From: a virus
Taxonomy: Duplodnaviria > Heunggongvirae > Uroviricota > Caudoviricetes
DNA length: 43,981 nucleotides
IMG/VR virus record: IMGVR_UViG_3300045988_012512
Location: 1-43,981 of that record
Direction: 5' to 3' (one strand)
Shown: piece by piece, positions 1-43,981 of the stretch
How positions within the stretch are numbered: the first letter of the stretch is position 1
How the letters are laid out: the number at the start of each line of letters is the position of its first letter
The notes under the pieces: model-generated
Told to the model about the DNA's origin: nothing
The model's database searches: none
The model's input: the letters and a program-made list of their open reading frames with translations, nothing else
Made by a program: the position numbers and the translations under genes

Positions 1-55
1 GAATAATGTTGTTGATGCGCGCACCATCTAGCGCTACCCGCGGCGGCTTGACTAC
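1..55. repeat. 55-bp terminal direct repeat, identical to 43927..43981 (genome junction / assembly overlap)
   Basis: Same 55-nt string at both ends of the window; minus-strand tailspike frame is continuous across the junction. Confidence 0.85.
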
Positions 56-1033
56 CATTGTGCCGACAAACGGCTTATATGACACAGTGGGTGTGGAGCT
101 ATAAGTGTAGTAGTTACGGTATCTCAGAGTGCCGTCGGGGTCGATTTCGTGAACCTCTGTTTTTGTTTTACTTTCGCCAGTGTCGCGTAGCATGACGACA
201 TCTGTAGAATCAAGAATAAGAGACCCCTGTAACCCAGTAACAGGGAAGCTCGTCTGCCCTTTCAGGTAACTTACTGCGGAAAACATCGAAGTTACGTCAG
301 TAGTAGATTGAGGTATATGAAAAAGAGTAGTGTCAAGGGACCACACATCGCCGGATTGATAAGTAGAACATGTGACAGTTGCCCCGCTCATATCCGCAGG
401 CACTTCTATAGATAACGGGTCGCTACTGCTTGCCGTCAAAACATAATCACCATTTGCCAAAAAAGATGAGCCGCGTGATTTAGCTTCCGCCAACGCAGCT
501 TTCCACGCAGCGGTGTGGTCTGTCTCCAGCCCTGTCATAAACATCTCTGGTGTCACGGGGGTAGCGGTCTTAATATGGTCAAGTTCTTCTGCAATTGTAA
601 GACCGGAAGAGTGTCCAACAAGAGCGCTGCCAGAGGTTGATGCTAATTCTTCACGTAAATCAGGGTCAGTCTGAGACTTCCAGTTAGCGTTACCAACGGG
701 GTTAAATGCCGCCGGAACCGTAACAGGCAGTGTGCCGGCATACGAGTACCATGTCTTACTTACAGGGTCGTAAACGACTTTGTCGCGGTCATTAACTGTT
801 AACGTACCGCCGGTGGAAAAGTCCCATGACACTGGAGAAAAACCAGCGTCACGCAACACGGCAGGAAGCGTCTTCTGAGTCTGCCCAGTAACTGCGTTGG
901 TCGCGTAATCAATATCCGCACCCGTAGCCACACCGCCCGCTTTACCCGTGATAACCTCGGCTTCGAAGATCTGGTGTTTCTTGGCGGTTTGTAAATCCGC
1001 CAGGCTTAAAACGTCACCGCATCCGCTTGACAT
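1..1033 (-). CDS. tailspike / depolymerase-like protein, N-terminal part (continues in frame at 43926..42506; about 817 aa in total)
   Basis: ATG at 1033..1031 with AAAGAGGA 8 nt upstream; translation MSSGCGDVLSLADLQTAKKHQIFEAEV...; no stop before position 1; absent from the ORF track only because it runs off the window edge. Confidence 0.6.
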   Translation of the reverse strand, partial: MSSGCGDVLSLADLQTAKKHQIFEAEVITGKAGGVATGADIDYATNAVTGQTQKTLPAVLRDAGFSPVSWDFSTGGTLTVNDRDKVVYDPVSKTWYSYAGTLPVTVPAAFNPVGNANWKSQTDPDLREELASTSGSALVGHSSGLTIAEELDHIKTATPVTPEMFMTGLETDHTAAWKAALAEAKSRGSSFLANGDYVLTASSSDPLSIEVPADMSGATVTCSTYQSGDVWSLDTTLFHIPQSTTDVTSMFSAVSYLKGQTSFPVTGLQGSLILDSTDVVMLRDTGESKTKTEVHEIDPDGTLRYRNYYTYSSTPTVSYKPFVGTMVVKPPRVALDGARINNII

Positions 1034-1045: not shown

Positions 1046-3601
1046 TTAATTAAAACCATTGCTGAATCCGTCGGAGAAACCGCTGCCGTATGGCGCGACG
1101 CCGTCGTATTTATAGAATCCGTCGTCATAGTTGTAGCCCGTAATCTTGACCGTGCGGTCGTCGCCGGGGTCGATTGAAGAAACAACTATCTTCTGAGCAT
1201 TATGCCTTGCTTCGTTGCCGAATGAAAACTCAGTTTTTAGTGCACTATTCCCCGTGTAGATTGCTTCCTCCGGCGCGGAGAGCATAATCACTTCGCGGTC
1301 ATGGCTTCCTTCGATAACGGATATACTCTGCACGGAGCCGTCTCGCTTCTTGAGGATGATGGAGTGGTCATCGCCGGGGGTAAACGTAACAGGTTGCGAT
1401 AGCGTCAGCGTAAGCCCATTAACGGCAACAATGTAGCCATCCTGCGGTGCAATACGGGAGCCTTTAACCACGCTGATTATGCCGCCGGGTGTGGCGAGAG
1501 CACCTTCTTCGGTAGCTTCGAACTCTACGACAACTTTACTTAACGCGTTGCGCTGGTAGCGACGCCACGCCAGCCAATATGCCTGCTGATAGTTACGTAC
1601 GCCCTTCGATTCATATTCCTCGGTGTTTGCTCCGAGTTCTTCCGGGATATAAATCGTTTCCTGTACGTTAGTATCCGGGTCGATGTATGAGAACGACAGG
1701 CTATCGTAGGTTGTAGAATCGTTGAACGTGCGGGTCCATTTCTCCGTACCGGTAGTTTTGCTGCGGTGGGTGAACACCATTTCAGGCCCCGCAACCGGAC
1801 GATCGAATCGCAGCATAATATCCGCACCTTTACGGTACGCAGTACAGAACACGGCTTCCGCTATGGTCTGAACAATGTCCTGCATGGTTGTGTCGTAATC
1901 GTCGAACGTGTAGCAGAACTGACCTGCTAATTCGCTACCGAAATATGACTCAATCTCTTCCTGCACGGCGAGTAACTTGTCCATGTTTGCGGTTGTCAGT
2001 TCCAGATTGCCAACCACCGGGTCGCGCGCCAGTCGGATTAGCGACTGCACAGCCTGGGTATTTGGCGTCATTACTGTATCGAATACGCCGTTGCCTAAGT
2101 ATTTGTAGCACATCTCGGTTGCAATCATGCGCAGTTCCGGGTTGTCGATACTGGCGGCCCGCGGCGTCTGTTTACGGGCGCAATGTACTGTTGTCCTGTT
2201 GCCGTAGTGCGGGGTTGTGTCCAGAGACTGCCCGTACAGGTTGATGAACGTTATCTCGTCGCTTACCGTTCCGTCGTAGTCCTTATCGAAATTCGTTATA
2301 CGGCGCATACGGGCGCGGAAACGCGATGCAGTAGGCAACTGCCCATAAATGGATGTACCGACGTAATCCGTGCTATTACCGGTAATTGTGGCCTGTACCG
2401 TGTAAATACCGCTCAACGGGTTACGCTGAGAGTCAATCATCTGGTACTGGAGTTCTACGGTTACGCTGGTGCGGTTATAGCCGCCATCGTATTTGTAGAG
2501 GCCGTTCTGCCCGGCAACGTTAGCAAGCACACGGTCAACTTCCCCGCGCACCATGTAATACCAGTCGGTCAGGGATACGTCATAGGTGTTGCTCGGGCCA
2601 ATAAACGTATCTGAACGCTCTGTTAGGGTGTACGTCTGCCCGCTGGTCAACGCCGCCCAGTTAGACGCTCCGTTTACCGCTAATCTAACTTCGAAGTCGT
2701 CGACATATAAAACTTCAAACGAGCCGTTCAGGTTAGTGACGTCCGCAACGTCAAAGTTGCTCAGCACCGCTACGTCGCCAACGCTAAGAAACTCAGAAAA
2801 AGCAGAGTCGCCTGACGGGTCATAAATGTAGCCGGTGTTTGAGATACGTTTGGCTGTGCCGTCGGCGCTTGGGTTAGCTCCGATGTCGTTTGGTGCTTTC
2901 AGTACGATACCGTCAACGTCGTCGTTGGAGTATGTCACATAGAGTTTCTGGTCAATGACGTCGCCGATTTGTAGCTGCGGCGATGCGGTGTTGTTCGGGG
3001 AAGTATACGGCGCATACACGGCTACAGAGGAGCCTGTGATGTCGCTTATCAGGGTGTCGCCTTCCGTTACGCCATCAGCCTCAATATGCAGATGCCCGCG
3101 CCCCGCGTCATAATACGAATACTCCAGCAAAGCACCCGTGGAGTTGAACGCTTTATACGTCTGCATCAGGTCGTTAGGGATTGTCTGCACAGTCCCGCAG
3201 ATGTCATAGGAGCGCTCGTAAGGACGAGGCTTGTTGGAGCGATCTGTTAGGCTGTTATTCGGTGACGTTGTCTGATTGTTAGTCGCCGTGTAGTTGGCGT
3301 TTGCGGACATGTTCAGACCAAACAACTTGGCAATTGGCTTAAGGATAAAACCAAACACCTTACTAACCGCACCGAGCGCCCCGCTACCCGCACCCTCAAT
3401 AATGTGGTACACGGCGTCTTCGTCTTTGAGCGCGTCGAAGTCGTCTGTCACATCAGTATCATCGCCAATCTCACCGAGGTAGACGCGCACAGGCACGCCG
3501 TCCGGGATACGGTTAACGACAAACTCCATCGGCATCCCGACGTGTTTTGTACGGTCGAAAGCGCCGTCGGCGTTTCGCGTGTAGTGCAGGATTATCGCCA
3601 A
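1046..3601 (-). CDS. tail tip / host specificity protein (lambda J-like)
   Basis: 851-aa ORF immediately downstream of the lambda-like tip genes; FRARMRRIT motif resembles lambda gpJ. Confidence 0.6.
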   Translation of the reverse strand: MAIILHYTRNADGAFDRTKHVGMPMEFVVNRIPDGVPVRVYLGEIGDDTDVTDDFDALKDEDAVYHIIEGAGSGALGAVSKVFGFILKPIAKLFGLNMSANANYTATNNQTTSPNNSLTDRSNKPRPYERSYDICGTVQTIPNDLMQTYKAFNSTGALLEYSYYDAGRGHLHIEADGVTEGDTLISDITGSSVAVYAPYTSPNNTASPQLQIGDVIDQKLYVTYSNDDVDGIVLKAPNDIGANPSADGTAKRISNTGYIYDPSGDSAFSEFLSVGDVAVLSNFDVADVTNLNGSFEVLYVDDFEVRLAVNGASNWAALTSGQTYTLTERSDTFIGPSNTYDVSLTDWYYMVRGEVDRVLANVAGQNGLYKYDGGYNRTSVTVELQYQMIDSQRNPLSGIYTVQATITGNSTDYVGTSIYGQLPTASRFRARMRRITNFDKDYDGTVSDEITFINLYGQSLDTTPHYGNRTTVHCARKQTPRAASIDNPELRMIATEMCYKYLGNGVFDTVMTPNTQAVQSLIRLARDPVVGNLELTTANMDKLLAVQEEIESYFGSELAGQFCYTFDDYDTTMQDIVQTIAEAVFCTAYRKGADIMLRFDRPVAGPEMVFTHRSKTTGTEKWTRTFNDSTTYDSLSFSYIDPDTNVQETIYIPEELGANTEEYESKGVRNYQQAYWLAWRRYQRNALSKVVVEFEATEEGALATPGGIISVVKGSRIAPQDGYIVAVNGLTLTLSQPVTFTPGDDHSIILKKRDGSVQSISVIEGSHDREVIMLSAPEEAIYTGNSALKTEFSFGNEARHNAQKIVVSSIDPGDDRTVKITGYNYDDGFYKYDGVAPYGSGFSDGFSNGFN

Positions 3602-19131: not shown

Positions 19132-19132
19132 A

Positions 19133-19591
19133 TCATTCTGTCTTAGAGACCTTCGCCGCTTTGCTTACGGCCTCTGCACCATCGGCATCAGTAACTTTAA
19201 CGAAGTATTCACCAGCCGCATTAACAGTCAGAGACAGAGCCTCTTCCGGGGCGTTCACCACTTCCTTCCCGTCTTTGTACCAGGTCAGTACATACGGCGC
19301 TTTACCCGCCTTAACTTCGACGGTGATGGTGGCGCTACCGTCGACCAGCTCGGTGTCTTTCGGTTGCACAGAGAAATACACATCACCAGCATCTGCCAGA
19401 TACGGAATCTCATAAAGCATACCAGCAGCAGAGAGTGCGATACCGGTCTTGTCCGCATACGGCATCTCGTCTACAGGTGTACCTAGTACACTTTCATCTT
19501 CAACGTAGGTTACGTTCTCACCAGAACCGGATACACGGGCGTACTGGACTACGCGACGCGACGGCACATCAGTTACTTTAAAAAAGCCCAT
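19133..19591 (-). CDS. Ig-like domain protein
   Basis: C-terminal Ig-like signature PYVLTWYKDGKEV...GEYFVKVTDADG. Confidence 0.5.
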   Translation of the reverse strand: MGFFKVTDVPSRRVVQYARVSGSGENVTYVEDESVLGTPVDEMPYADKTGIALSAAGMLYEIPYLADAGDVYFSVQPKDTELVDGSATITVEVKAGKAPYVLTWYKDGKEVVNAPEEALSLTVNAAGEYFVKVTDADGAEAVSKAAKVSKTE

Positions 19592-19594
19592 AAA

Positions 19595-20218
19595 CTAAAC
19601 CTCTTTCATTGAGTTAATCTTACGTAAGACGCCTTCGAAAAGGCGTGGGTCTATGCTATCGCAAAGACCTTTGTATTCATATGCTAATTCAATTTTTCTA
19701 TGAAACCATGCTACGTGTGCCTCTTGAGCGGTTTCGTAAGCGCCTATTTGTTCAGATACGCCATCCACGGATACTTGAGCGATGAATCTTTTCTTTTGTT
19801 TATGGAAATGTACGCCGAGTGGGTGTTCGCCTCGAAGAGCGTCGTGGGCTGTTAGGAAAGTATTGAGGGATTTAGGGATGAAAACACAGTTAGAAGCATC
19901 GTAAACCTTATTTCCCGGGTTAAGTAAATCCTTATCTATCTGCCACCCAGGTACATAAAAATCATCAAACCAGACCTTGAAATTACTGAACACCAACCAA
20001 TCGTCCGACACGCGGCAACCTATATAAGTTCTGTTTCTTTGCTGCCATTTCTTGTCGTAGCACCTCTTTAACATGTTCTTCCATACGGCGTAGGACGCTA
20101 TATGCACCCCTCCGCAACTTATTGGTGAAACATCGTTAATACCCACACCAAAAACAATTCCCATATTAAACCCTATAAGAAAACCCCATGAAGATTGGTC
20201 GATGCCAGAGATAGGCAT
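19595..20218 (-). CDS. free-standing homing-endonuclease-like protein (HNH-type N-terminal region plus AP2-like DNA-binding domain)
   Basis: WKNMLKRC...YIGCRVSDDW...IDKDLLNPGNKVYDASNC then AP2-like GAYETAQEAHVAW; AT-rich with rare codons. Confidence 0.5.
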   Translation of the reverse strand: MPISGIDQSSWGFLIGFNMGIVFGVGINDVSPISCGGVHIASYAVWKNMLKRCYDKKWQQRNRTYIGCRVSDDWLVFSNFKVWFDDFYVPGWQIDKDLLNPGNKVYDASNCVFIPKSLNTFLTAHDALRGEHPLGVHFHKQKKRFIAQVSVDGVSEQIGAYETAQEAHVAWFHRKIELAYEYKGLCDSIDPRLFEGVLRKINSMKEV

Positions 20219-20288
20219 ACCTTCATGGGGTTATATTCTTTCTCTATTTTTAGTAGTTCACCGACCAAAGCTAGCTACTAGATATACT

Positions 20289-21365
20289 TTATACCGACCT
20301 AAGATATTCAGCAACCCTGTTATCTAACGCCGCCATCTCCTTCAAGGTTAAAGGTCTACCAAAAGCGTCGACGGATATTACCCGGAATTCCTCTGGGGAT
20401 ATCCCACTATTCCTGAATATAGCACCGCGGGTAGGTCCGAGTGCTTCATCCACGAACCATGCCGGTTGCTGTTTCAGGAACTCGTAATAGGTGGTGTCTG
20501 CGCTTACCTGCATACCGCCGTCCGCACCCTTAGCCGCGCGTTTTGCACCTTTATCTAGGAAGTCGAACTCCGAACTGATTACCGGTGCAGTGGTACTTCG
20601 ACATCCAAAATGGGCGGGGGGCATCGGACCTTTACCGATTTCCCACGTCATCCCGTCTCTGGCCCTGCAAATCGTACTGGTACGACTGTCCAGCGTTGAC
20701 ACCCATTCGTATTTCTCGATGATGTCGTCGTTCTGGCGGTATGTCTCGTTGCGGGCTTCGTTGGATACGTGAGACAGCGCGGTGCGGATTACCGTAGCCG
20801 CGTTGCGTTCAGAGATGTCCGCCAGCCCACCAGCGCCTACGACATTTTTAACAATCTGCCGTGTGGTTTGGCCCTGAACAAACCCCATCTTAACGCCGGT
20901 TACGAGGCGCGCGGCCTCCGTTTCACCCCAGCCTGCCATCAGCTTAGTGAAATCGACGGGCTTGTCGCTTAATGATAAGGGTTGAAACTCGGCAGCGGAC
21001 CACACCTGTTCGGCGGTAGGCGTAACAAATTCCGCGTCAACGTTGGCGGTCAGTGTTTTTACGTTCCACTCAGCCTCATATGCGGCCAGTTCCTTAAGGT
21101 CTTCTGCCAGTTTTGTTTGCCAGTCACCTGTAAGCCCGGTTAATGCTTCTTCGAGGTCGCGTAACAGTTTATTCAGTCGCGCAGTGCTTCGCCCGTCATC
21201 GCCGAAAAGCAGCACCTGCCGTTTGATTTCGTCCCGCATCTCCTGAATAAACGGTGCGAGGTCTTTCACTTCGCCGGATGCGGCGCGTTGCAGCCATATC
21301 TGGTGGCTGATTAGAGATGTAAGTAAGCTCATAGATAAACCCTGTGGCGCTAAAGTTAATAGCAT
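20289..21365 (-). CDS. minor head morphogenesis protein (Mu F-like)
   Basis: WVSTLDSRTSTICRARDGM...HFGCRST motif; directly downstream of portal. Confidence 0.6.
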   Translation of the reverse strand: MLLTLAPQGLSMSLLTSLISHQIWLQRAASGEVKDLAPFIQEMRDEIKRQVLLFGDDGRSTARLNKLLRDLEEALTGLTGDWQTKLAEDLKELAAYEAEWNVKTLTANVDAEFVTPTAEQVWSAAEFQPLSLSDKPVDFTKLMAGWGETEAARLVTGVKMGFVQGQTTRQIVKNVVGAGGLADISERNAATVIRTALSHVSNEARNETYRQNDDIIEKYEWVSTLDSRTSTICRARDGMTWEIGKGPMPPAHFGCRSTTAPVISSEFDFLDKGAKRAAKGADGGMQVSADTTYYEFLKQQPAWFVDEALGPTRGAIFRNSGISPEEFRVISVDAFGRPLTLKEMAALDNRVAEYLRSV

Positions 21366-27707: not shown

Positions 27708-28008
27708 CCGGGCCTCCTCGACGTGAGATGTATTCCCCGGCGACGATACCGGAGAGGCGGGAATAGATAGGCATCCAGAGAATAGCGATGATGAAACCCA
27801 GACCAGCGATTTCACGCTCCCCGGTAATGCCGAACCATTGGGCAGCGAGAGGCGCACCGAATACGGCGCAAGCGAAGCCGGTTACAATAAAGAATAAGCC
27901 GTCGATGGGTCCAGAAATAACGGACTTATGTTGTCGTAGTCCGATGACCCCTCCGGCGAGTGCGGCAGCGAGAAGCCAGCCTGTCACTGTTTCAGTAAAT
28001 TTATCCAA
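27700..28008 (-). CDS. holin / antiholin-like membrane protein (three predicted transmembrane helices)
   Basis: 102 aa with three hydrophobic segments; adjacent to the second holin-like gene. Confidence 0.55.
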   Translation of the reverse strand: MDKFTETVTGWLLAAALAGGVIGLRQHKSVISGPIDGLFFIVTGFACAVFGAPLAAQWFGITGEREIAGLGFIIAILWMPIYSRLSGIVAGEYISRRGGPDE

Positions 28009-28083
28009 GATGAATCCTCCAGGTGCGTATTAAGTATGCAGTAACTGGAGGATAGCACGGTTAGGAATTATCTTAATAACGGT

Positions 28084-28377
28084 TTATTTATGACGCCAGA
28101 TGTATTGTCGTCTCTGCGGTTTCGTCGGAATATCATCGTATCCGAGCGATTTCCAGTAATTAAATAACCGATTAGCGATTGCAGCGCGTTCCTGCGTTTT
28201 AAACTCACCGAGATTCACGGCCTTCCAGTTCTGGAATCCACAGGCGCGGACAGCTTTGCGTCGGGCCTGAATCTCAGGGTACAGCGCGTTACCCCGACGC
28301 TTGCATATCTGTGTTTTAGCTCTCGGTGACAGCGGCGAGAGGCCGCTTCGTTTCAGGATGTCAGTTGCAAGGCTCAT
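28084..28377 (-). CDS. hypothetical basic protein
   Basis: Likely start at ATG 28377 (ATGA overlap); ORF track extends to 28422. Confidence 0.35.
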   Translation of the reverse strand: MSLATDILKRSGLSPLSPRAKTQICKRRGNALYPEIQARRKAVRACGFQNWKAVNLGEFKTQERAAIANRLFNYWKSLGYDDIPTKPQRRQYIWRHK

Positions 28378-28565
28378 ATACCGAGAATCCCGCTGGCCAT
28401 TTCTTCGGTAGCTTTCGAACACGGCTCATACATTACCTGTTCAGCGAAGTTACGCAGCTTATGCTCAAGCGCCGCGTAATCATCGTATGTCACATAGTCG
28501 CCGTAGTCCCATTTAGCCATCTCAGGCTCTTCCCATCTGGTAGATAATTCGTATCTCTGTACCAT
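28374..28565 (-). CDS. small protein, paralogue B (MVQRYEL...)
   Basis: Begins with the same ATGGT-CAGAGATA nucleotide string as the adjacent paralogue. Confidence 0.35.
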   Translation of the reverse strand: MVQRYELSTRWEEPEMAKWDYGDYVTYDDYAALEHKLRNFAEQVMYEPCSKATEEMASGILGI

Positions 28566-28763
28566 CACTCCACCCCTTCCACATGTGTAACTGACCCACA
28601 GTTCGCGCACTCGACGTAATCCGGGAACTGGTCTTTGTATTTCTGCAACTCGGCTTTTAGTTTCGCATAGTCCCTGTAGCCAACCCATTCACCGTCTGCG
28701 TCTTTCTCTAAATCGATATGCCCGGTAACCCAGTCTTCTTTTAAATCATATCTCTGCACCATG
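28565..28763 (-). CDS. small protein, paralogue A (MVQRYDL..., C-terminal CANCG)
   Basis: AGGAG RBS before ATG 28763; tandem paralogue of 28374..28565. Confidence 0.4.
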
Positions 28764-28967
28764 TTATCTCTCCTGTTTACCAAGTCGCTTAGGTGAGCAG
28801 ATAGCGCGTACCTCTGAATCGTTTGGCTTGTCACCCTGAAACAGGAAGTGCGCGTTCTCTGCGGCGCGTGCCGCTGACTGGCACGCCTCCATCGAATAAA
28901 ACGTTTCTGATGCAGCGAGTTGCATCTGGCCTGCGGACAATACCCAGATAAATAAGATGCTGGTCAT
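28764..28967 (-). CDS. small protein with N-terminal hydrophobic signal or anchor
   Basis: MTSILFIWVLSAGQMQLAAS hydrophobic N-terminus, two Cys; ATGA coupling. Confidence 0.4.
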   Translation of the reverse strand: MTSILFIWVLSAGQMQLAASETFYSMEACQSAARAAENAHFLFQGDKPNDSEVRAICSPKRLGKQER

Positions 28968-29512
28968 GTCGTCTCTCCACATCTGCGGCACACAAAATAA
29001 TCCTCGTCGGCATCAAGAACCCAATCATGATCACATTCCTGAGTATCGTTTTTCGGTTTATATTCCTTGTCGTCCCACTCACGTTCACCACATTTAGAGC
29101 AAAGCTCGCTACCAGGAACGTTGTTCGGATTGCCTTCGCTGAGAAACAACCCAGGCATAATAATCCAAGAGTGCTCGCATTCCTGGGTATCTTCTTTACG
29201 GCAACCAGATTGCTCCGGCGGTACAGGCGTCTGGGTGCACCGACAATTTACCGTTGGCCCGGGCGCATGTTCGCCAACCACGTAGCTCTGGCCCCTAGAA
29301 ATGTACCCACCCTTACGCACAAGTTTGTAAGCCTCTACATCCCCGGTGGCGGTAGCCAGCGCCATATGTAACTCCTTAATCTGCACCGAAGCATCACGTA
29401 ACTGATTCTTAAGTGACTGCACCTCATGAGCCAGGTCTTCGCTCCGGCTGTTATTTACCTGCTGCCGTAGCTGGTCGATCAGGTACTCGAATATTTCGTT
29501 TTTGTTACTCAT
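28964..29512 (-). CDS. coiled-coil protein with two zinc-ribbon-like repeats
   Basis: QECEHSWII...CSKCGERE and QECDHDWVL...CRRCGET; start at ATG 29512 (ORF track 29533). Confidence 0.45.
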   Translation of the reverse strand: MSNKNEIFEYLIDQLRQQVNNSRSEDLAHEVQSLKNQLRDASVQIKELHMALATATGDVEAYKLVRKGGYISRGQSYVVGEHAPGPTVNCRCTQTPVPPEQSGCRKEDTQECEHSWIIMPGLFLSEGNPNNVPGSELCSKCGEREWDDKEYKPKNDTQECDHDWVLDADEDYFVCRRCGETT

Positions 29513-29642
29513 CAGCTTCACCCCTTTTCTCATCCACCCCGACTAGCAGCGATTTAGTGTCGCCGTCACACACCGAAGTGCTACTAATTATTTCGTAAGC
29601 GTCTACCAGTTCGCCTAAAGTCCAGCTACCGTACCAGCCCAT
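29505..29642 (-). CDS. hypothetical small protein (45 aa)
   Basis: GAGAGGAG RBS before ATG 29642; first gene after the promoter at 29673. Confidence 0.3.
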   Translation of the reverse strand: MGWYGSWTLGELVDAYEIISSTSVCDGDTKSLLVGVDEKRGEADE

Positions 29643-29672
29643 CTCTGTCTCTCCTCTCGCTTGTGTAAATGA

Positions 29673-29701
29673 ATAGTAGCCTATTCTATCTTAGCGTGCA
29701 A
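29673..29701 (-). promoter_or_regulatory. sigma70-type promoter (TTGCAC-17-TACTAT)
   Basis: Same architecture as the promoters at 9029 and 30772. Confidence 0.5.
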
Positions 29702-29858
29702 GTAAATTTTATTGGTGTTTGTATTGTTGTATCTCCCGCAATAGTCGCTTCGATTGTGGCGTTTGGTGAAAGTGTCGCTTTTTGACGACACTAAGTTAAA
29801 GTTGTACGCTGCTGTGTAGCAGCGTAAGTCACTCAGTAAAATCCCAAACTATTGAACA

Positions 29859-30062
29859 TCACACTTCTGGCGGCTCAGGTAACGGCATCCAGTGAGAAAA
29901 CACTTCCTGCGCATGTTCCCCGTAGTCCGCCCGGAAATCACACCAAGTTACCCCATCCCACTCGTACACATTGTTCTGGACAACACCGCCCATACTACTG
30001 ACGACCAAAACTGGTTGACCTAGCCCCGGCATCCGCGCACTACACTTAACCCACTCGCCCAT
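29859..30062 (-). CDS. DUF551-family phage protein
   Basis: C-terminal HWMPLPEPP signature. Confidence 0.6.
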   Translation of the reverse strand: MGEWVKCSARMPGLGQPVLVVSSMGGVVQNNVYEWDGVTWCDFRADYGEHAQEVFSHWMPLPEPPEV

Positions 30063-30065
30063 AAA

Positions 30066-30209
30066 TCACCCCTTATTCATCGCAGTTTGCACACCAGCTT
30101 TCCACGCCCGCCACGCGAGACGCGTCTTAACGTTCAGGTACTCTTTCTTTGAACCCTTGTTAACCGGCAGACCCTCGACCACAGCCCACCGTTCAAATGC
30201 TTCTCTCAT
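30066..30209 (-). CDS. hypothetical small protein (47 aa)
   Basis: ATGA-coupled to the upstream ORF. Confidence 0.3.
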   Translation of the reverse strand: MREAFERWAVVEGLPVNKGSKKEYLNVKTRLAWRAWKAGVQTAMNKG

Positions 30210-30361
30210 ACCAGAACCTCACATTCATCCCGATACACGAACAATAACGACCCTTTGTACTCAATCATAAAACCATAATGGTTGCTGCTGAACGCCAGAA
30301 AAACATCACCTACCGAGATACCGAAATCTATAAGCCTGCGGTCAGTTATACGGATTCGCAT
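30206..30361 (-). CDS. hypothetical small protein (51 aa)
   Basis: TAATG coupling to the upstream ORF. Confidence 0.3.
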   Translation of the reverse strand: MRIRITDRRLIDFGISVGDVFLAFSSNHYGFMIEYKGSLLFVYRDECEVLV

Positions 30362-30549
30362 TAACGGCAACCTCCCTCAGAGTCTTCGGCACGAGCATCA
30401 TGATTCGATGCCGTTCTCTCCCGCACTTCTACCATCCTTCCTACCACTGCGGCGTAATGCACATACAGCTTTATTGCGTAATCTTTATTACTTGTCGTCT
30501 CTGTTATGACTCCGTCGACGTATACGTCGTAAATTAATTCTTCCATCAC
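30361..30549 (-). CDS. hypothetical early protein
   Basis: 62-aa ORF, ATGA-coupled. Confidence 0.35.
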   Translation of the reverse strand: MMEELIYDVYVDGVITETTSNKDYAIKLYVHYAAVVGRMVEVRERTASNHDARAEDSEGGCR

Positions 30550-30737
30550 TTCGCCCCTTTGAATTTAAAATTGTTGCCGATTAGCTTTAAATTCTCTTCC
30601 GCTACGTATACCACCGAATTTACTCCTCTCACCTTTTGCACAGTAACTCCGTACTCTCCCGGAAATAAAGCGGATTTTAATTCAATCACACCGTATTTAC
30701 CGTCGGCGCATTTAACCAACTGACCCTTCTTAAACAT
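30546..30737 (-). CDS. hypothetical early protein
   Basis: GAGGAG RBS before ATG 30737; first gene after the promoter at 30772. Confidence 0.4.
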   Translation of the reverse strand: MFKKGQLVKCADGKYGVIELKSALFPGEYGVTVQKVRGVNSVVYVAEENLKLIGNNFKFKGAK

Positions 30738-30771
30738 AACCACCACTCCTCTGTCTCGTTTCGATAAGTGA

Positions 30772-30800
30772 ATAGTATCCTATTATATTGGGGTGTGCAA
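30772..30800 (-). promoter_or_regulatory. sigma70-type early promoter (TTGCAC-17-TACTAT)
   Basis: -35, spacer and -10 nearly identical to the promoter at 9029..9057. Confidence 0.55.
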
Positions 30801-31152
30801 GAGAATAGTTACGTTGCCGTTGTGATTCTTTCGTTTCTTTAAAGAGTACGCAACGCAGTGGGTGGGCGATAGCCCACCCCAGCGGAGTGAAGTACTCTCT
30901 ACCTTGCTTACGGCAACTAAAGAAACTTTTAATTATCAAGTACTTATGAATGGAGGTAAAATTTAAATAGACGGGGTCTTTCTTGTCACTTGCTGTTACT
31001 TTTAGGAAACTTAGATACTAACGTTACCAAGAGTACTGTTTAGCGCCCCGCTTTAGGGCGGGGCTTTAAGTACCCGAGACTTAAGAATAATGTTTCTAAG
31101 TAATTCTGAACTAAGGCCCTTCGATACGTTGATTTTACAGCTACATTTTATT
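30801..31152. promoter_or_regulatory. divergent control region with nested palindromes, AGTAC repeats and a conserved hairpin
   Basis: About 350 bp without credible ORFs between divergent operons; inverted repeat AGAGTAC/GTACTCT around an 8-bp GC hairpin; hairpin element at 31042..31068. Confidence 0.5.
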
Positions 31153-31192
31153 TTGTCAATAGGTTGTGTTTAGTTATTATAGGTGTTATAGT
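31153..31192 (+). promoter_or_regulatory. tandem sigma70-type promoters (TTGTCA-16-TATTAT and TTGTGT-17-TATAGT) for the plus-strand operon
   Basis: Hexamers with canonical spacing upstream of the gene at 31222. Confidence 0.45.
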
Positions 31193-31221
31193 TGTTTAAC
31201 TTGATAAAGAGGGCGTGTAAA

Positions 31222-31401
31222 ATGACACAGAAAGAAGTAGCAGACTTAATCGGAGTTTCCACTATGACTCTTAATCGCTGGCTTCGGTCCGGTAAGTTCC
31301 CGGAGTGTTGCCGTGTTATTAACGGCTACCGGCAGCCAGGTACGTTTGACCGCGCTACCGTGGAGGCGTGGATTAAGGAGAACGTGAAAGATGCTAACTA
31401 A
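31222..31401 (+). CDS. small HTH DNA-binding protein (AlpA/excisionase-like)
   Basis: MTQKEVADLIGVSTMTLNRWLRSGKFP; AGAGGG RBS (ORF track starts at 31192 with a non-ATG codon). Confidence 0.5.
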   Translation: MTQKEVADLIGVSTMTLNRWLRSGKFPECCRVINGYRQPGTFDRATVEAWIKENVKDAN

Positions 31402-31666
31402 ATTCCAGAAACACATATTAATGTGTGCGCGCAGACTTACCGAGGCGAACGGTGCTTTTACGGTAGATGGGCTTCGTAGATACCGGTTAGATAATTACGG
31501 TGTAAATCCGATTAAACATGCTTTAAATGTTCTTGAGCAACACGGAGAGGTTCTTAATAAAGGAAAGTTTTATCGGGCAACAAGAGCAACGCCGATTACA
31601 GAGAAAGCGAGAAGTATTGGAAAAGTGTTGGTCCCCGAGGGTAATATCTCCCGCGACCTGGAATAA
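31391..31666 (+). CDS. hypothetical protein
   Basis: 91-aa ORF overlapping the upstream stop. Confidence 0.4.
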   Translation: MLTKFQKHILMCARRLTEANGAFTVDGLRRYRLDNYGVNPIKHALNVLEQHGEVLNKGKFYRATRATPITEKARSIGKVLVPEGNISRDLE

Positions 31667-31724
31667 AAGAAAGCCCCGACGCGGTGAACGCCGAGGCCAA
31701 ATTACTTACTGAAGGAAATACAAC

Positions 31725-33992
31725 ATGTCCGATGTAATTTTATCCTACTCGTGGTCTCGTCGCAACGCGCGGGCAGAGAAAAAGGATATAAACGTCAGAA
31801 CCACACACACGGCAACACTGGACGACCTGAAAGAGTTAATCCAGCCGCTTGATGCTGTCCGTGACGGAATTAACCCGAAGACAGCGCCCGGTTATATCAC
31901 CGCCGCGTGCGACTCAACGCACAGCACCGTAAAAGACCCGGAAACCGGTGACTTTAAGCGAGCGCGTAAAGGCTTCTTCTATCGCTGTGACGCGTCTGTA
32001 AGCAAATCATCGCTGGCGTATCTGGACTTTGACAGCGCAACGCCGGAAGAGTATCAGGAAGCGGTGCGCCTGGTTAAGCGTAGCCGCCAGGCTATGTGTC
32101 TCTACACCACGGCATCCCATACCGATGAGTCACCGCGCTTTCGCGTCGTCATGCCGCTGGGCCGCCCGGTCGAAGGGGGCGACATCATCCGCATACGTCA
32201 TGGATTGCTGGAGCACTTCTTCAAAGGCATGGGCGCTGACCGTAGCGGGTTCACTTTGTCTCAGCCCATGTACCTTCCTCCGGTAGGCTCTCAGGTTATC
32301 TGGTCGCGCCGTAACGACCTTATTGACCCGGAAGAGTTACTGGAAGGCATCCCCGCCGTTGACGTTAGCAGCGCATCTGACTACCAGATACCGGAAGAAC
32401 TGCGCACTGCATTTACTGATGCGTTCGAGGCACTGGCGTTCGAATACGGCGGCATCATGACGCCGCGTGGCCTTAAGATGCCCGCCACACCGGAACACGC
32501 AGAAAACTACAGCGACCCGACCCCGCGCCCGGACGACTTCCTGCTGTGCTTCCCGCGCGAGGGATATGAAGCGCCGAACGTAACGATGATTCACGACACC
32601 GACATCACGGCAACCGAAGGCATGTCGCCGAAAGAGGTGTGGAAGTATGCGTGTGATGCGACCGGACTGCCGTTCAGTGAAGTCGCAGAGGCCATCGGAT
32701 GGGGCGCGCGTGAAGCCGTCTCATGCAGCCTGGATGACCTTGAAGACGACGAGGACTCAGAGGAGGACGAGTTACCGGAACCGGTAAAGGCTGATTTCGT
32801 CGTTGAGGGGTACATGCCGTCGGATTGTATCTGGGATATTGTTGGGGAGTCTGGCACGTATAAATCATTCTATACGCTGGGGATGATGTACCTGAGCGCC
32901 GCCGGATACCGGTTTGCCGGGGCAGATACCCAGCGTTGCCACCATTTCTATATCGACGGTGAGGGCGGTGCCACTACACGCACCCGTATTGATGCACTCG
33001 CGGCTAAATATGGCGAGGAAGGTAAAGATTATGTACATGTTATCGATATGGGTGAAGTCGGAAAACTGAAAAGCCTGATTAAGTTAATGCGCGAAACTGC
33101 GGGTGATGAACCCATCGGCATGGTCGCGTTCGACACCCTTAACCAGACGCTGGCCCTGACGATTGATAAGTTCGACGAGAACAGTTCATCAACGGCAATC
33201 GGCATGGGTAAAGTTATCGCCATCCTGAAAGAAGTACGCGACGCAACTAAAGCCGCGGCAGGCGTTGTACACCATACGCCGAAGGGTGGAAAGAAAGCCC
33301 GTGGCAGTGGAGCATTGTATGCTGGTGTCGACGTGGAACTGACAATCGAACGTGCTACCGACCGTCAGATAAACGTATACCACTCTAAATTTAAGCACGG
33401 GCCTCAACAGAAGACGGTTGGCATGGTACTGGAGTCGGTACAGTTTCGTGAAGCACCGCCGCCGAAAGAGTACCGCGCGGTTGAGTTCCTCGGTAGCACA
33501 GAGGAATACGGCACAATAGTAAACCTCGACCTGCCTGAGCCGCACAAGGCGCTTGTGCTGATGCCGTGGGGCTTCGAGCCGTTCAAGACTGATGAGGAGA
33601 AAGAGCGGGAAGAAGGGTTAACTAACGAAGGTAAACAAAATGTACGTAAAACCGTAGAGAACGCCGTCAACAGTTCCGAGTCCACTATACTCGCGGCGTT
33701 TGAACTGGCGGAGGGGACCTACAACGGCAACGAAGGTATCACGGTATCCGCGGCGAATAAGCTCGCACAGTCTGACCCCAACGCAAAGGCGTTTAACTCC
33801 AAAGAAGCCATAGAACGCGGGAAGATTAAGAAAATGGTTGAGGCTGGGTATCTTGTTCCGGGTACTGACGAAAACAATCAGATAATCCCAGGCCGTTACA
33901 GACTTAACACCCGGATAACGGATAACAAGATTCCGAAGACAATATACGAACCCAATGAGATGCTGACAGTGACAGAGGAGGATTTGGAATGA
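31725..33992 (+). CDS. replication protein: primase-like N-terminal domain plus RecA-like ATPase/helicase domain
   Basis: N-terminal LAYLDFD and SHTDESPRFRV (primase-polymerase-like); central GESGTYKS P-loop and MVAFDTL Walker-B-like segment. Confidence 0.55.
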   Translation: MSDVILSYSWSRRNARAEKKDINVRTTHTATLDDLKELIQPLDAVRDGINPKTAPGYITAACDSTHSTVKDPETGDFKRARKGFFYRCDASVSKSSLAYLDFDSATPEEYQEAVRLVKRSRQAMCLYTTASHTDESPRFRVVMPLGRPVEGGDIIRIRHGLLEHFFKGMGADRSGFTLSQPMYLPPVGSQVIWSRRNDLIDPEELLEGIPAVDVSSASDYQIPEELRTAFTDAFEALAFEYGGIMTPRGLKMPATPEHAENYSDPTPRPDDFLLCFPREGYEAPNVTMIHDTDITATEGMSPKEVWKYACDATGLPFSEVAEAIGWGAREAVSCSLDDLEDDEDSEEDELPEPVKADFVVEGYMPSDCIWDIVGESGTYKSFYTLGMMYLSAAGYRFAGADTQRCHHFYIDGEGGATTRTRIDALAAKYGEEGKDYVHVIDMGEVGKLKSLIKLMRETAGDEPIGMVAFDTLNQTLALTIDKFDENSSSTAIGMGKVIAILKEVRDATKAAAGVVHHTPKGGKKARGSGALYAGVDVELTIERATDRQINVYHSKFKHGPQQKTVGMVLESVQFREAPPPKEYRAVEFLGSTEEYGTIVNLDLPEPHKALVLMPWGFEPFKTDEEKEREEGLTNEGKQNVRKTVENAVNSSESTILAAFELAEGTYNGNEGITVSAANKLAQSDPNAKAFNSKEAIERGKIKKMVEAGYLVPGTDENNQIIPGRYRLNTRITDNKIPKTIYEPNEMLTVTEEDLE

Positions 33993-40727: not shown

Positions 40728-40919
40728 ATGAAACACGAATATGACCGCAAACCAGCACGTGACATCGTACCTGGTGACATGATTTTCAACGTTAAGACCC
40801 GTCGCCCTGTTGCCGTTGATACGGTGTTCGTCGAGTCGAATGGTAAACTGGTTATTGAAGACGTAACCGGTAACGTTACGGCGTTCGGGCGTAAAGAGTT
40901 AGTTCTGGTGGCAAAATGA
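40728..40919 (+). CDS. hypothetical protein
   Basis: 63-aa ORF; stop overlaps the helicase start. Confidence 0.4.
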   Translation: MKHEYDRKPARDIVPGDMIFNVKTRRPVAVDTVFVESNGKLVIEDVTGNVTAFGRKELVLVAK

Positions 40920-42340
40920 GTAAGTTTCAAAGGCGCGAATACCAGAAGCTCATGACTTCGTTCATGCTGCAACACCCGCGCTGTAATATCTGGTGCGGCA
41001 TGGGAGGAGGTAAAACCTCCTCCACTATGTGGGTGCTAAACCGCCTGTTCCGCAACGGGCAGCTTACCGAAGAGGACCGCGTGTTAATCCTCGCCCCGTT
41101 GCGCGTTGCGTCCGGTACGTGGCCTGCAGAACAAGAGAAATGGAACTTTCCTTGTCTGCGTGTCGTAGATGCGACCGGTTCAGAGAAGCGCCGCATCGCG
41201 GCGCTGGAGTCTGATGCTAACGTGGTGTGCACGAACTACGAAGTTATCGAATGGCTGATTGACTACTACGGCAAAGACGACTGGCCTTTTACGGTTATCG
41301 TTGCCGATGAAAGCACGAAGCTTAAATCATTCCGCAGCCGTTCGGGTGGTAGCAAGCGGGCAAAGGCGCTTAGTAAAGTGGCGTTCGGTAAGGTTAGGCG
41401 TTTCATCAACCTGACTGGTACGCCGTCACCAAACGGCCTTAAAGACTTGTGGGGTCAGAACTGGTTTATCGACGCGGGCGAGCGCCTTGGCTCATCATAC
41501 ACGGCATTCACCGACCGCTGGTTTAACTCGGTACAGAAAGGAAAATCTGCGATGGCTCGTGAATATCACGCACGACCGGGTGCGGATAATGAGATTCACC
41601 AGAAGATGAAAGACATCAGCTTGACCATCGACCCCGCCGAGTGGTTTGGTTGCGAAGCTCCTGTTATCGTACCGGTCGAAATAGACCTGCCGAAGAAAGC
41701 GCGTCAGGCGTACATAGACATGGAGGAGAAGCTATTCGCGGAACTGGAGAGCGGGGAGGTTGAAGCGGCTAACGCCGCGGCGAAGACGTCGAAGTGTTTG
41801 CAGATTGCATCCGGTGCCGTATATGTGTCGGGGTCAGACGGCGAAGCAACCAAAGAATGGGAGAAAGTGCACGACACGAAACTGGATGCGCTGGAGTCAA
41901 TTGTTGAGGAGTTACAGGGTGCACCGTTACTGGTGGCCTATCAGTTTAAGCACGAACTGGAGCGCATCCTTAAGCGATTCCCGCAGGCGCAGGCGTTTGC
42001 CAAAGGTGCGAAGGGTAATAAGCAGATGGAAGCGTGGAACCGAGGTGAAATCGAAATCATGTGCGTGCATCCTGCGTCAGCCGGGCATGGTTTGAATTTA
42101 CAGGACGGCGGGCATCATCTTGCGTTCATCTCACAAGGATGGAACCTTGAGCACTATTTGCAGGTCGTTGAGCGCATAGGCCCGGTACGCCAGAAGCAGG
42201 CAGGCCACGAGCGCCCGGTGTTCCTTTATCACATAGTCGCTAAAGACACGCTGGATGAGGTTGTTGCCGCGCGTACAGACGATAAGAAATCGGTACAGGA
42301 AGAATTGCTCAATTACATGAAGAGACGAGGTACGAAATGA
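40916..42340 (+). CDS. SNF2-family (DEAD-like) helicase/ATPase
   Basis: GMGGGKTS (motif I), LILAPLRV, VADEST (motif II), NLTGTPSPNG (motif III). Confidence 0.7.
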   Translation: MSKFQRREYQKLMTSFMLQHPRCNIWCGMGGGKTSSTMWVLNRLFRNGQLTEEDRVLILAPLRVASGTWPAEQEKWNFPCLRVVDATGSEKRRIAALESDANVVCTNYEVIEWLIDYYGKDDWPFTVIVADESTKLKSFRSRSGGSKRAKALSKVAFGKVRRFINLTGTPSPNGLKDLWGQNWFIDAGERLGSSYTAFTDRWFNSVQKGKSAMAREYHARPGADNEIHQKMKDISLTIDPAEWFGCEAPVIVPVEIDLPKKARQAYIDMEEKLFAELESGEVEAANAAAKTSKCLQIASGAVYVSGSDGEATKEWEKVHDTKLDALESIVEELQGAPLLVAYQFKHELERILKRFPQAQAFAKGAKGNKQMEAWNRGEIEIMCVHPASAGHGLNLQDGGHHLAFISQGWNLEHYLQVVERIGPVRQKQAGHERPVFLYHIVAKDTLDEVVAARTDDKKSVQEELLNYMKRRGTK

Positions 42341-42474
42341 ACATCATAGCCCCGATTCCGGCGTTGCAAAAACGTATCAAGGAACTCGAAGAAGAGGTTC
42401 TACGACTACGGCAGCAAAGGGACGCCGCTAATGCGCAACTGGCGTTTGTACTGGAGAAGTTGTCAGAAGAGTAG
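42337..42474 (+). CDS. small coiled-coil protein (45 aa)
   Basis: ATGA-coupled to the helicase gene. Confidence 0.3.
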   Translation: MNIIAPIPALQKRIKELEEEVLRLRQQRDAANAQLAFVLEKLSEE

Positions 42475-42478
42475 AGAA

Positions 42479-42498
42479 AAGGCCCCGTTTGGGGCCTT
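42479..42498. terminator. intrinsic terminator ending the late minus-strand operon (AAGGCCCC-GTTT-GGGGCCTT)
   Basis: GC stem; T-run on the minus-strand side, right after the tailspike stop. Confidence 0.7.
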
Positions 42499-42505
42499 AA
42501 GGCTA

Positions 42506-43926
42506 TTACACCTGATATACACCACTGTTTACATAGTTAGCCTGAATTCGTGTACGGAACGTAGAATCAGCAAGCTGATATGAATTTAACTGGACCAGAA
42601 TCGCGCATCCGGAATATTTACCTGTGGCACTATTCGCGGACTCGTTAGCCCCAAAAAGCAGGCCTATTGTTGAGTTAGATGTTTCAGTTACTCCAGTTAT
42701 GGCTGAAATCCATCCAAACACGCAACTGGTAAAATCAAATATCCCGGTCCTGTACCCCCCGCTACTGGACCAACCTAACCCATAGATTCGACAGTTGTTA
42801 AAGAAAATTCTGTTGTATGAAGCGGAAGTGCGAGCGACCGCGCCGTCGATGTAACCCATTGCCATATCCTGGTCAGACACTCTTATTAACATATCATTCC
42901 AGGCCCCTACATAAGGCACACAGTTAAAGCTATCAGATATAGAAATATCTTGCGGCACACCGTATGTGGTGAATTTAAAAGTTTGCACGTTATATCGCGG
43001 GTTGCTTGATGATACGGTGTTACCTAATCTTGCCAAATCGACGTTCTTAACGGTTAGTTTGTATTTACCGCGACCAACAATCGTTGATAGTTGGGATGCT
43101 GTCAGGCTTGAGTAATTCCGCCGGTTAGAAACCACGTTAGCCGAAAGTGAAGCGCCGTATGACCGTGTCCCTACAACCTTCACATTTTCAATATAATGAC
43201 TGTTAGGGAGAATCATATATTGTTCGTAGTTGCTTCCTGGGGACACCCCGAGGTCAAGAATACGCAAGTCGACAAGGCCAGATGCGTTAGTAAGGTCAAG
43301 AGATACATCCTTTATGACTACATCCGGGCTTGTAGCTATAAAATTACCGTTATATTTAGGTTCCAGGCTGCTGACGACAAAGTATCCTGTACATGTGGAC
43401 GGCAGCACCACGCGCAAACCCTCTACGCGCACCTCACCGTCCCACGACGACATATAATCTCGTTTAACAGAAAAGAACTCCATTACATCTTTGCCGTACA
43501 GGCCGAGGTGCTTGCAGTTAGTGGCAACCCACTCCCCCCATCCTTGCGCCGTGCAATGGTAGCGTACAGTTGTCTCATTCACGTAAATGTCGGAGTTACT
43601 GAAATGCCCACCTACCCCCGCCAGGTCGCAACGGTTTATGTGCACATTACGCGTCATATTCCCGTCATACCCACCCCACCCATTGATGTTTGCGCAATCC
43701 TCTACCACTACATCAGAACATTTCTCAGCAAGAATAAAATACGCGGCCTCATCCCTTCCCGCTGGTAACGATGGCGCTGTTCCACTAAGGTAGCCAACCG
43801 GTGACATATAGATTTTTGACGCCTTAACGCGCGAACACCCCTGTAAATTAATAGCCTGTCGTGCGCTCCCATTGTTACTGATAATTACGGTCATACCTTC
43901 AATTACGGTATTATTTCTCTCGCATA
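42506..43926 (-). CDS. tailspike / depolymerase-like protein, C-terminal part (in frame with 1033..1)
   Basis: Frame open from 43926 to stop at 42506; Ser/Thr/Asn/Gly-rich repetitive sequence; AT-richer than the N-terminal part. Confidence 0.65.
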
Positions 43927-43981
43927 GAATAATGTTGTTGATGCGCGCACCATCTAGCGCTACCCGCGGCGGCTTGACTAC
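43927..43981. repeat. second copy of the 55-bp terminal direct repeat
   Basis: Identical to positions 1..55. Confidence 0.85.

What the first reader, a model, noticed from the sequence alone, without database searches (positions are those of the whole stretch)
42506..43981. Tailspike gene spans the genome junction and is compositionally mosaic
The minus-strand ORF starting at 1033 runs through position 1 and continues in frame at 43926 down to 42506, giving one protein of about 817 aa. The N-terminal third (encoded at 1..1033) is GC-rich like the rest of the genome, whereas the C-terminal catalytic part is visibly AT-richer, with the switch near the junction. That pattern suggests horizontal swapping of the receptor-binding or depolymerase domain onto a conserved anchor. 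The ORF track splits the gene and omits its start.
Basis: seen in the sequence. Interest (0 to 1): 0.6.

Follow-up and report, generated by a model that had tools for sequence, protein, structure and literature searches.

The report
Kagunavirus tailspike with swapped receptor domain
The window is a circularly assembled E. coli phage genome cut inside its tailspike gene, and that gene is an ordinary modular tailspike: a genus-conserved attachment domain joined to a receptor-binding beta-helix also found on unrelated prophages, probably specific for O46/O134-type O-antigen.

Summary
The gene is real. The window ends with an exact 55-nt copy of its start. Removing that copy gives a 43,926-nt circle. 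On it, the minus-strand ORF from ATG 1033 runs through position 1 and on from 43926 to stop 42506-42508: 2,454 nt, 817 aa, no stop or frameshift. An independent contig aligns gaplessly across the junction at 99% identity.

The phage is a Kagunavirus (K1G-like siphovirus). The domain swap is supported, but by homology more than by composition. Backbone identity to other Kagunaviruses stops at window 630-945 and resumes at 42499. The remainder of the protein (aa ~126-817) occurs at 60-99% identity on six different N-terminal anchors, including P22-type prophage tailspikes.

The composition claim is only partly right. The module has 47.1% GC, the anchor 53.1% and the genome 51.0%. That shift is modest (6.6th percentile) and weaker than other islands in the genome. 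It lies about 450-660 nt from the junction, at aa ~125-195, not at aa 344.

The model has a right-handed beta-helix depolymerase fold. E. coli lysogens carrying homologues are O46/O134 (7 of 9) or O160 (2 of 9), which suggests an O-antigen receptor. This is a new member of a well-described kind.

The parts
659..1033 (-). Tailspike codons 1-125: Kagunavirus-type N-terminal anchor (attachment to the tail tip). ATG at 1033-1031, with Shine-Dalgarno AAAGAGGA upstream.
   Evidence: PHROG tail-spike families match aa 1-114/1-147 at E 1e-35 to 5e-49. Identity to other Kagunavirus tailspikes over aa 1-142..174 is 76-91%. DNA backbone homology ends at window 630-945. GC is 53.1%. There is a weak PF18668 match at aa 77-112, below the Pfam cut-off.
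464..658 (-). Codons ~126-190: neck or hinge (DPDLREELASTSGSALVGHS... helices) and the cap helices of the beta-helix. This is the zone where all anchor types join the shared module, and so the likely recombination zone.
   Evidence: Alignment A1 shows six anchor types converging at query aa ~123-135, with the first invariant columns at P162/E163. The identity profile to other anchor types rises from about 36% at aa 135 to 70-80% at aa 210. The AF2 model has helices at 126-134, 147-157 and 174-187. Pas et al. [quoted passage not shown]
1..463 (-). Codons ~191-344, plus the first base of codon 345: the N-terminal part of the receptor-binding beta-helix module.
   Evidence: DNA homology (85%) to the P22-like prophage tailspike of E. 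coli NCTC11121 begins at window 447, aa 196. The best GC change point is at window ~469. The AF2 model has beta strands from aa 191.
42509..43926 (-). Last two bases of codon 345 and codons 346-817: the main body and C-terminal end of the receptor-binding beta-helix module.
42503..42508 (-). Tandem stop codons TAA TAG.
   Evidence: Read directly from the sequence.
42479..42498 (-). Hairpin AAGGCCCC-AAAC-GGGGCCTT followed by TTCTCT. It is terminator-like and lies in the conserved backbone between the convergent tailspike and helicase-side genes.
   Evidence: Sequence. Folding energy is -16.6 kcal/mol with its flanks. The T run is too short for the consensus scan, which called no terminator. K1G homology resumes at 42499.
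43927..43981 (.). Exact 55-nt duplicate of window 1-55. It is the terminal overlap of a circular assembly and is not additional genome.
   Evidence: Exact match. The independent contig L007 has a single copy in an uninterrupted alignment.
1046..3601 (-). Upstream neighbour: J-like central tail fibre or tail protein (851 aa). It shows the gene context is conserved.
   Evidence: PHROG 469 tail protein at E 2e-255, and PHROG 31 central tail fiber J. K1G has the same order, tail protein then tailspike then convergent helicase, and so does L007.
40916..42340 (+). Downstream convergent neighbour: SNF2-type DNA helicase (474 aa). It shows the gene context is conserved.
   Evidence: PHROG 62 DNA helicase at E 7e-167. 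It is 88% identical in DNA to the K1G helicase gene.

Best explanation
The window is a complete Kagunavirus genome (Guernseyvirinae, K1G-like lytic siphovirus of E. coli). It was assembled as a circle and cut arbitrarily inside its single tailspike gene.

The 817-aa tailspike has three parts:
- An N-terminal anchor of about 125 aa, conserved in the genus, which fixes the protein to the tail tip next to the J-like central fibre.
- A helical neck, aa ~126-190.
- A right-handed parallel beta-helix receptor-binding module, aa ~190-817.

The module belongs to a small family that circulates among enterobacterial phages. It was acquired by recombination within the conserved neck region and just after the stop codon.

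In temperate phages the same module sits beside O-antigen-modifying genes (gtrABC or an acyltransferase). From this I infer that the module binds, and probably cleaves, an E. coli O-antigen, most likely the O46/O134 type. That would bring the virion to the outer membrane and set the phage's host range.

Shown here: gene continuity, taxonomy, module boundaries, sharing of the module across anchors, and the fold. Inferred: enzymatic activity, receptor identity, and the direction of transfer.
For: Continuity:
- Exact 55-nt overlap and an open 2,454-nt frame.
- Gapless 10.5-kb alignment at 99% to an independent contig, running across the junction.
- The 817-aa product lies internal to that contig.
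- K1G has the same contiguous order, tail protein, tailspike, helicase.

Taxonomy:
- 91-93% DNA identity over the backbone to K1G, K1ind1-3 and other Kagunaviruses.

Module swap:
- Backbone homology ends at window 630-945 and resumes at 42499.
- No phage record matches beyond aa 202 at more than 26% identity.
- Homologues of aa 130-817, at 60-99% identity, carry Kagunavirus, P22 head-binding (PF09008), PF18668-type and three other N-termini.
- 85% DNA identity to the NCTC11121 P22-like prophage tailspike from aa 196 to the end.
- The module family is AT-richer wherever it occurs: 40-46% GC in prophages and 47% here.

Fold:
- AF2 model of the 99%-identical P0001 has pLDDT 72 and pTM 0.73.
- BFVD hits are tail spikes and tail fibres.

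O-antigen link:
- The receptor module and gtrC-gtrB-gtrA form one homologous block of 4.5-4.9 kb on three different prophage backbones.
- Of 9 complete E. coli genomes with a homologue, 7 carry the O46/O134 wzy, which is present in only 17 of 5,426 genomes. The other 2 are O160.

Literature:
- Kagunavirus tailspikes have genus-conserved anchors and horizontally exchanged, serogroup-specific receptor domains (PMC10408124).
- Guernseyvirinae phages generally depend on surface glycans (PMC11990801).
Against: - No enzymatic or host-range data exist.
- The catalytic type (hydrolase or lyase) cannot be read from fold matches at 8-17% identity.
- Catalytic residues were not located, because only a monomer of moderate confidence was modelled, and from a 99%-identical proxy.
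- The O46/O134 association rests on few independent lineages. The two NCTC strains are near-identical, and several others share the same tailspike-to-wzy spacing.
- Two lysogens are O160.
- Lysogens with the 74%-identity variant may not report the specificity of this 85-88%-identity lineage.
- The crossover point cannot be placed more precisely than aa ~125-195.
- GC content alone does not single out this gene.
Confidence: 0.85

Rival explanations
1. The 55-nt repeat is a genuine terminal repeat of a linear genome whose physical ends lie inside the tailspike gene. The gene would then be interrupted in virion DNA and restored only after circularisation.
For: Identical 55-nt ends exist. No read data are available to exclude fixed ends.
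Against: An independent assembly of a 99%-identical phage breaks elsewhere and reads straight through the junction. The K1G record is circular with a contiguous tailspike. A 55-nt exact overlap is the usual signature of a de Bruijn assembler closing a circle (background knowledge). Even if the repeat were real, the gene product would be the same.
Confidence: 0.03
2. The lower GC of the C-terminal part reflects the amino-acid and codon constraints of beta-helix proteins or ordinary within-genome variation, not foreign origin. The gene would then have diverged in place.
For: The GC shift is modest (6.6th percentile) and smaller than other shifts in the genome. GC2 is also lower (0.46 against 0.50), which points to an amino-acid composition effect. 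K1G's unrelated endosialidase part is also AT-richer than its anchor.
Against: Composition aside, the module has 85% DNA identity to a P22-like prophage tailspike, while the anchors are unrelated. It occurs on six anchor types. Other Kagunaviruses carry non-homologous sequence at the same position between conserved flanks.
Confidence: 0.03
3. The module targets a capsular polysaccharide or another surface glycan, as K1G's endosialidase targets the K1 capsule, rather than the O46/O134 O-antigen. A variant of this rival is that it binds its receptor without cleaving it.
For: The top fold matches include capsule depolymerases for Klebsiella K64 and K1 and for E. coli K5. The genus includes capsule-specific members. 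The serogroup association is not phylogenetically independent, and two lysogens are O160.
Against: The module is physically linked to the O-antigen glucosylation genes gtrABC, or to an acyltransferase, in four prophage contexts. Lysogens are strongly enriched for O46/O134. P22-like and Kagunavirus receptor-domain subtypes generally track O serogroup (PMC10408124).
Confidence: 0.2

Closest known systems
Kagunavirus tailspikes (K1G/K1ind endosialidase tailspikes; the O-serogroup-specific Kagunavirus receptor-binding proteins of Pas et al. 2023, PMC10408124)
   Same: Same genus backbone at 91-93% DNA identity. Same gene position, after the J-like tail protein and convergent with the helicase. Same N-terminal anchor at 76-91% aa identity over the first 142-174 aa. 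Same two-part design of conserved anchor plus exchangeable beta-helix receptor domain.
   Different: The receptor-binding module is unrelated to the K1 endosialidase and matches no phage record in the INPHARED collection at more than 26% identity. Pas et al. list receptor-domain subtypes for O2, O8, O16, O18, O22, O26, O45, O77, O78, O103, O104, O111, O145 and O157. They do not mention O46 or O134.
P22-like (Lederbergvirus-type) prophage tailspikes of E. coli at argW, e.g. WP_111724602.1 of NCTC11121 ('phage head-binding domain-containing protein')
   Same: The receptor-binding module is homologous: 85% DNA identity over aa 196-816, and 90-100% aa identity over aa 410-720 to the related protein P0004.
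   Different: The N-terminus is the P22 head-binding domain (PF09008) instead of the Kagunavirus anchor. The prophage gene is followed by gtrABC and an integrase, whereas this lytic phage took only the coding part up to the stop codon.
Solved beta-helix tailspike depolymerases: Klebsiella K64 tailspike ORF41 (8x8m), Pseudomonas phi297 gp61 (4ru5), LKA1 gp49 (4ru4), Klebsiella K1 lyase (7w1c), HK620 tailspike (2vji)
   Different: Sequence identity in the catalytic part is only 8-17%, and there is no sequence-level PDB match beyond aa ~170. Substrate and chemistry therefore cannot be transferred from these structures.

Membership tests
Genus Kagunavirus (Guernseyvirinae) | Genome-wide nucleotide similarity and gene order shared with K1G-type phages, with a genome of about 41-45 kb | tested here: met
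   43,926-nt circle. 91-93% identity over 75-93% of two 12-14 kb segments to K1G, K1ind1-3 and other Kagunaviruses. Same order of tail protein, tailspike and helicase as K1G. Whole-genome ANI against the 70% genus threshold was not computed formally.
Modular phage tailspike (anchor + receptor-binding domain) | N-terminal anchor conserved within the phage genus | tested here: met
   aa 1-142..174 are 76-91% identical to many Kagunavirus tailspikes. PHROG tail-spike N-terminal families match at E down to 5e-49.
Modular phage tailspike (anchor + receptor-binding domain) | C-terminal receptor-binding domain exchanged across phage taxa (anchor and receptor-domain histories disagree) | tested here: met
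   The same module, at 60-99% identity, occurs on six N-terminal types. Contexts are P22-like, lambdoid and other podovirus prophages.
Modular phage tailspike (anchor + receptor-binding domain) | Right-handed parallel beta-helix fold of the receptor-binding domain | tested here: met
Modular phage tailspike (anchor + receptor-binding domain) | Homotrimeric assembly | not testable with these tools
   Only monomer prediction was available.
Modular phage tailspike (anchor + receptor-binding domain) | Polysaccharide-degrading (depolymerase) activity | not testable with these tools
   Needs an enzyme assay. Invariant acidic residues exist in the helix (D432, D457, D501, D507, E533, E579), but their geometry was not examined.
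O46/O134-specific receptor-domain subtype (proposed here) | Hosts of phages or prophages carrying the subtype consistently belong to one O serogroup | tested here: inconclusive
   7 of 9 E. coli genomes with a homologue have the O46/O134 wzy, against 17 of 5,426 overall, and 2 have O160. The nominal hypergeometric P is 2.5e-17, but the lineages are not independent. The host of this phage is unknown.
Pfam Tail_spike_N (PF18668, TSP1/Gp66 N-terminal domain) | Score above the Pfam gathering threshold (25 bits) | tested here: not met
   20.8 bits, E 4e-4, aa 77-112 only. This is a resemblance, not membership.

The most novel reading that the evidence does not exclude
The module defines an undescribed tailspike depolymerase family, specific for the E. 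coli O46/O134 O-antigen, which contains D-glucuronoyl-D-allothreonine. Among temperate phages it travels as one 'serotype cassette' together with gtrABC. A lytic Kagunavirus captured only the receptor-binding half. The linked gtr or acyltransferase genes may be what separates the serologically distinct but genetically identical serogroups O46 and O134.
Probability: 0.35. Interest if true: 0.45.

Novelty: new member of a known kind. Interest (0 to 1): 0.3.

Why it matters
For annotation, the practical point is that the genome's only host-range determinant is split by the contig ends. Linear gene calling would mis-call it as a 462-aa fragment with a false start.

Biologically, it adds one more receptor-domain subtype to the exchangeable tailspike platform of Kagunaviruses. 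That subtype has no counterpart among isolated phages in the collection searched. It also gives a testable receptor prediction (O46/O134, possibly O160).

The physical linkage of this module with gtrABC across unrelated prophage backbones is a clear example of receptor recognition and receptor modification moving together. The principle itself, a conserved anchor with a horizontally exchanged receptor domain, is already well documented.

Tried and rejected
I used the 99%-identical P0001 instead.
- Composition as a boundary locator was rejected. Two-change-point likelihoods are nearly flat from aa 65 to 196, and the signal is weaker than in other parts of the genome.
- The consensus terminator scan found nothing after the gene. 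The hairpin is visible, but its T tract is short.
- Pfam gave no domain for the C-terminal 650 aa, and PDB sequence searches reach only the N-terminal ~170 aa. The enzyme class could therefore not be assigned.
- The primary paper on the O46/O134 structure is not held, so I could not check which linkage or side group a glycanase or gtr would act on.
- A literature search for the serotypes of NCTC11121 and NCTC9966 gave nothing useful. The serogroup was read from the RefSeq annotation of wzx and wzy instead.
- Megablast of the window against the P0003 phage fragment (L008) found no hit and was not pursued.

Full report
**1. The observation**

The last 55 nt of the window (43927-43981) are identical to the first 55 nt. 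The unique sequence is therefore a 43,926-nt circle.

On the minus strand an ATG at 1033 is preceded by AAAGAGGA, and an in-frame stop lies five codons upstream. From that ATG a frame runs to position 1 and continues without interruption at 43926. It ends at TAA 42508-42506, which is followed directly by TAG. The gene is 2,454 nt and encodes 817 aa. The junction falls in codon 345.

The mechanical ORF list reports only 42506..43894, a 462-aa product from an internal ATG. It cannot list the 5' part.

**2. Are the ends really adjacent?**

I could not map reads, but an independent assembly answers the question. Protein P0001 (817 aa, 7 substitutions) is encoded internally on a 43,791-nt contig from another sample. 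There it lies between an 851-aa tail protein and an SNF2 helicase.

That contig aligns with the circularised window in a single gapless block of 10,514 nt at 98.99% identity. The block runs from window 7000 through 1/43926 to 40413. Phage K1G, a circular record, has the same contiguous order of tail protein, tailspike and convergent helicase. The cut is therefore an arbitrary break of a circular assembly.

**3. What the genome is**

Two segments of 12-14 kb are 91-93% identical to Escherichia phages K1G, K1H, K1ind1-3 and many other Kagunaviruses of the Guernseyvirinae. The neighbouring genes are a J-like tail protein and a helicase. Portal and large terminase genes are also present.

**4. Where the mosaic boundaries are**

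Toward the tailspike, DNA homology to other Kagunaviruses stops at window 630-945, depending on the relative. That corresponds to codons 29-134. It resumes at 42499, 7 nt beyond the stop codon. The resumed homology includes a hairpin, AAGGCCCC-AAAC-GGGGCCTT, at 42479-42498.

At protein level, other Kagunavirus tailspikes match only aa 1-142..174 at 76-91% identity, with one match reaching aa 202. No record among 50,697 phage genomes matches the remainder at better than 26%.

A search with aa 130-817 found 17 proteins:
- Five carry the same Kagunavirus N-terminus.
- Five carry the P22 head-binding domain (PF09008).
- Four carry a PF18668-type N-terminus (MATQPTNLPVPSE...).
- Three carry other N-termini.

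All converge on the query at the motif DPDLRxxLAS..GAS.IG, aa ~123-135. Invariant columns start at P162/E163.

DNA identity of 85% to the P22-like prophage tailspike of E. coli NCTC11121 begins at window 447 (aa 196) and runs to the end of the gene. The exchange zone is therefore aa ~125-195, window ~450-660. This is the helical neck in the model.

The module is itself mosaic. Query aa 410-720 are 90-100% identical to prophage protein P0004, but aa 195-400 are only 53-83% identical.

**5. Composition**

| Region | GC |
|---|---|
| Whole genome | 51.0% |
| Codons 1-125 | 53.1% |
| Codons 126-344 (still in window 1-658) | 48.4% |
| Codons 345-817 | 46.5% |
| Module overall | 47.1% |

The module lies at the 6.6th percentile of equal-sized windows. 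A change-point scan puts the best left boundary at aa ~188. Its likelihood is nearly flat from aa 65 to 196 and lower at the junction.

Other parts of the genome shift more strongly. One is 18406-20325, which holds an HNH endonuclease, a Hoc-like decoration protein and an unknown ORF. Another is 27991-31800.

The AT-richness is real but modest. It is not localised at the junction, and it is not sufficient evidence on its own. It is consistent with the source pool, because the homologous modules in prophages have 40-46% GC. K1G's unrelated endosialidase part is also AT-richer than its anchor.

**6. What the module is**

Pfam finds no domain in the C-terminal 650 aa. PDB sequence searches reach only the N-terminal ~170 aa. 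The family is small: 45 clusters at E <= 1e-3 among 1.84 billion representatives.

- K5 lyase, HK620 tailspike and pectin-lyase-fold enzymes, at 8-17% identity.

Foldseek against viral models returns tail spikes and tail fibres. The fold is that of a tailspike depolymerase. Whether it is a hydrolase or a lyase remains open.

**7. Likely receptor**

In a P22-like prophage (L002, L005), a lambdoid prophage (L003) and a different podovirus-type prophage (L004), the homologous tailspike is followed by convergent gtrC (473 aa), gtrB and gtrA. The receptor module plus gtr forms one block of 4.5-4.9 kb. That block has 79-91% DNA identity on otherwise unrelated backbones. A more distant variant (L006) has an acyltransferase in the same place. 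These are O-antigen-modifying functions.

Nine of 5,426 complete E. coli genomes hold a homologue of the module. Seven of them carry the O46/O134 wzy, which only 17 genomes have. The other two are O160. The nominal hypergeometric P is 2.5e-17. The strains are few lineages, however, so I treat this as suggestive.

The literature states that receptor-domain subtypes of Kagunaviruses and P22-like phages track O serogroup (PMC10408124). It also states that Guernseyvirinae generally depend on surface glycans (PMC11990801). I infer an O-antigen receptor with confidence of about 0.8. O46/O134 is the best candidate, at about 0.4-0.5.

**8. Comparison with what is known, and novelty**

Pas et al. 2023 describe exactly this architecture for Kagunaviruses. 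[quoted passage not shown]

The present gene is a further member with a receptor-domain subtype not represented among isolated phages. It is not among the serogroups they assigned. It is a new member of a known kind, and specialist surprise is low.

The practical lesson is to rotate circular contigs before gene calling. The modestly interesting extras are the receptor-domain-plus-gtr cassette and the O46/O134 prediction.

Noticed in passing
L002 10001-14796; L003 10487-15404; L004 10778-15694; L005 7995-13148: The tailspike receptor module and the convergent gtrC-gtrB-gtrA O-antigen glucosylation genes form one homologous DNA block of 4.5-4.9 kb at 79-91% identity, with GtrC 92-100% identical. 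The block sits on P22-like, lambdoid and another podovirus-type prophage backbone, so recognition and modification of the receptor appear to travel together.
   Followed up: partly
NZ_LR134220.1 1839387-1845099 (L009 4388-10100) and eight other E. coli genomes: Lysogens carrying the module are O46/O134 (7) or O160 (2). O46 and O134 have near-identical gene clusters but do not cross-react serologically (PMC4732683). The prophage gtr cluster (NCTC11121, NCTC9966) or the acyltransferase (strain A28) next to the tailspike might account for that difference.
   Followed up: no
window 18406-20325: This is the strongest low-GC island of the genome, about 10 points below its flanks. It holds an HNH endonuclease (19595-20218), a Hoc-like head decoration protein (19133-19591) and an ORF with no PHROG match (18565-19035). 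It is a clearer compositional outlier than the tailspike.
   Followed up: partly
window 27991-31800: A second low-GC stretch, about 9 points below its flanks. It is packed with small ORFs on both strands around the switch from minus-strand to plus-strand genes and contains the lowest-GC windows of the genome, near 30200-30900.
   Followed up: no
window 1-463 and 42509-43926 (aa 195-817), compared with P0002, P0003 and P0004: The receptor module is itself mosaic. Query aa 410-720 are 90-100% identical to the P22-type prophage protein P0004, while aa 195-400 are 53-83% identical. The Kagunavirus protein P0002 is about 100% identical up to aa ~195 but only 63-76% over aa 285-400. This points to recombination within the beta-helix among family members.
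   Followed up: partly
L008 3022-3510: The related Kagunavirus that carries P0003 (77% identical receptor module) has an HNH endonuclease gene inserted between the tailspike and the helicase. The window has none at that position.
   Followed up: no
window 42342-42479 (+): A small ORF of about 45 aa with a coiled-coil-like sequence (MNIIAPIPALQKRIKELEEEVLRLRQQ...) overlaps the end of the helicase gene and ends just before the hairpin. A 45-aa gene is called at the same place in L007, and K1G has a small ORF28 there.
   Followed up: no
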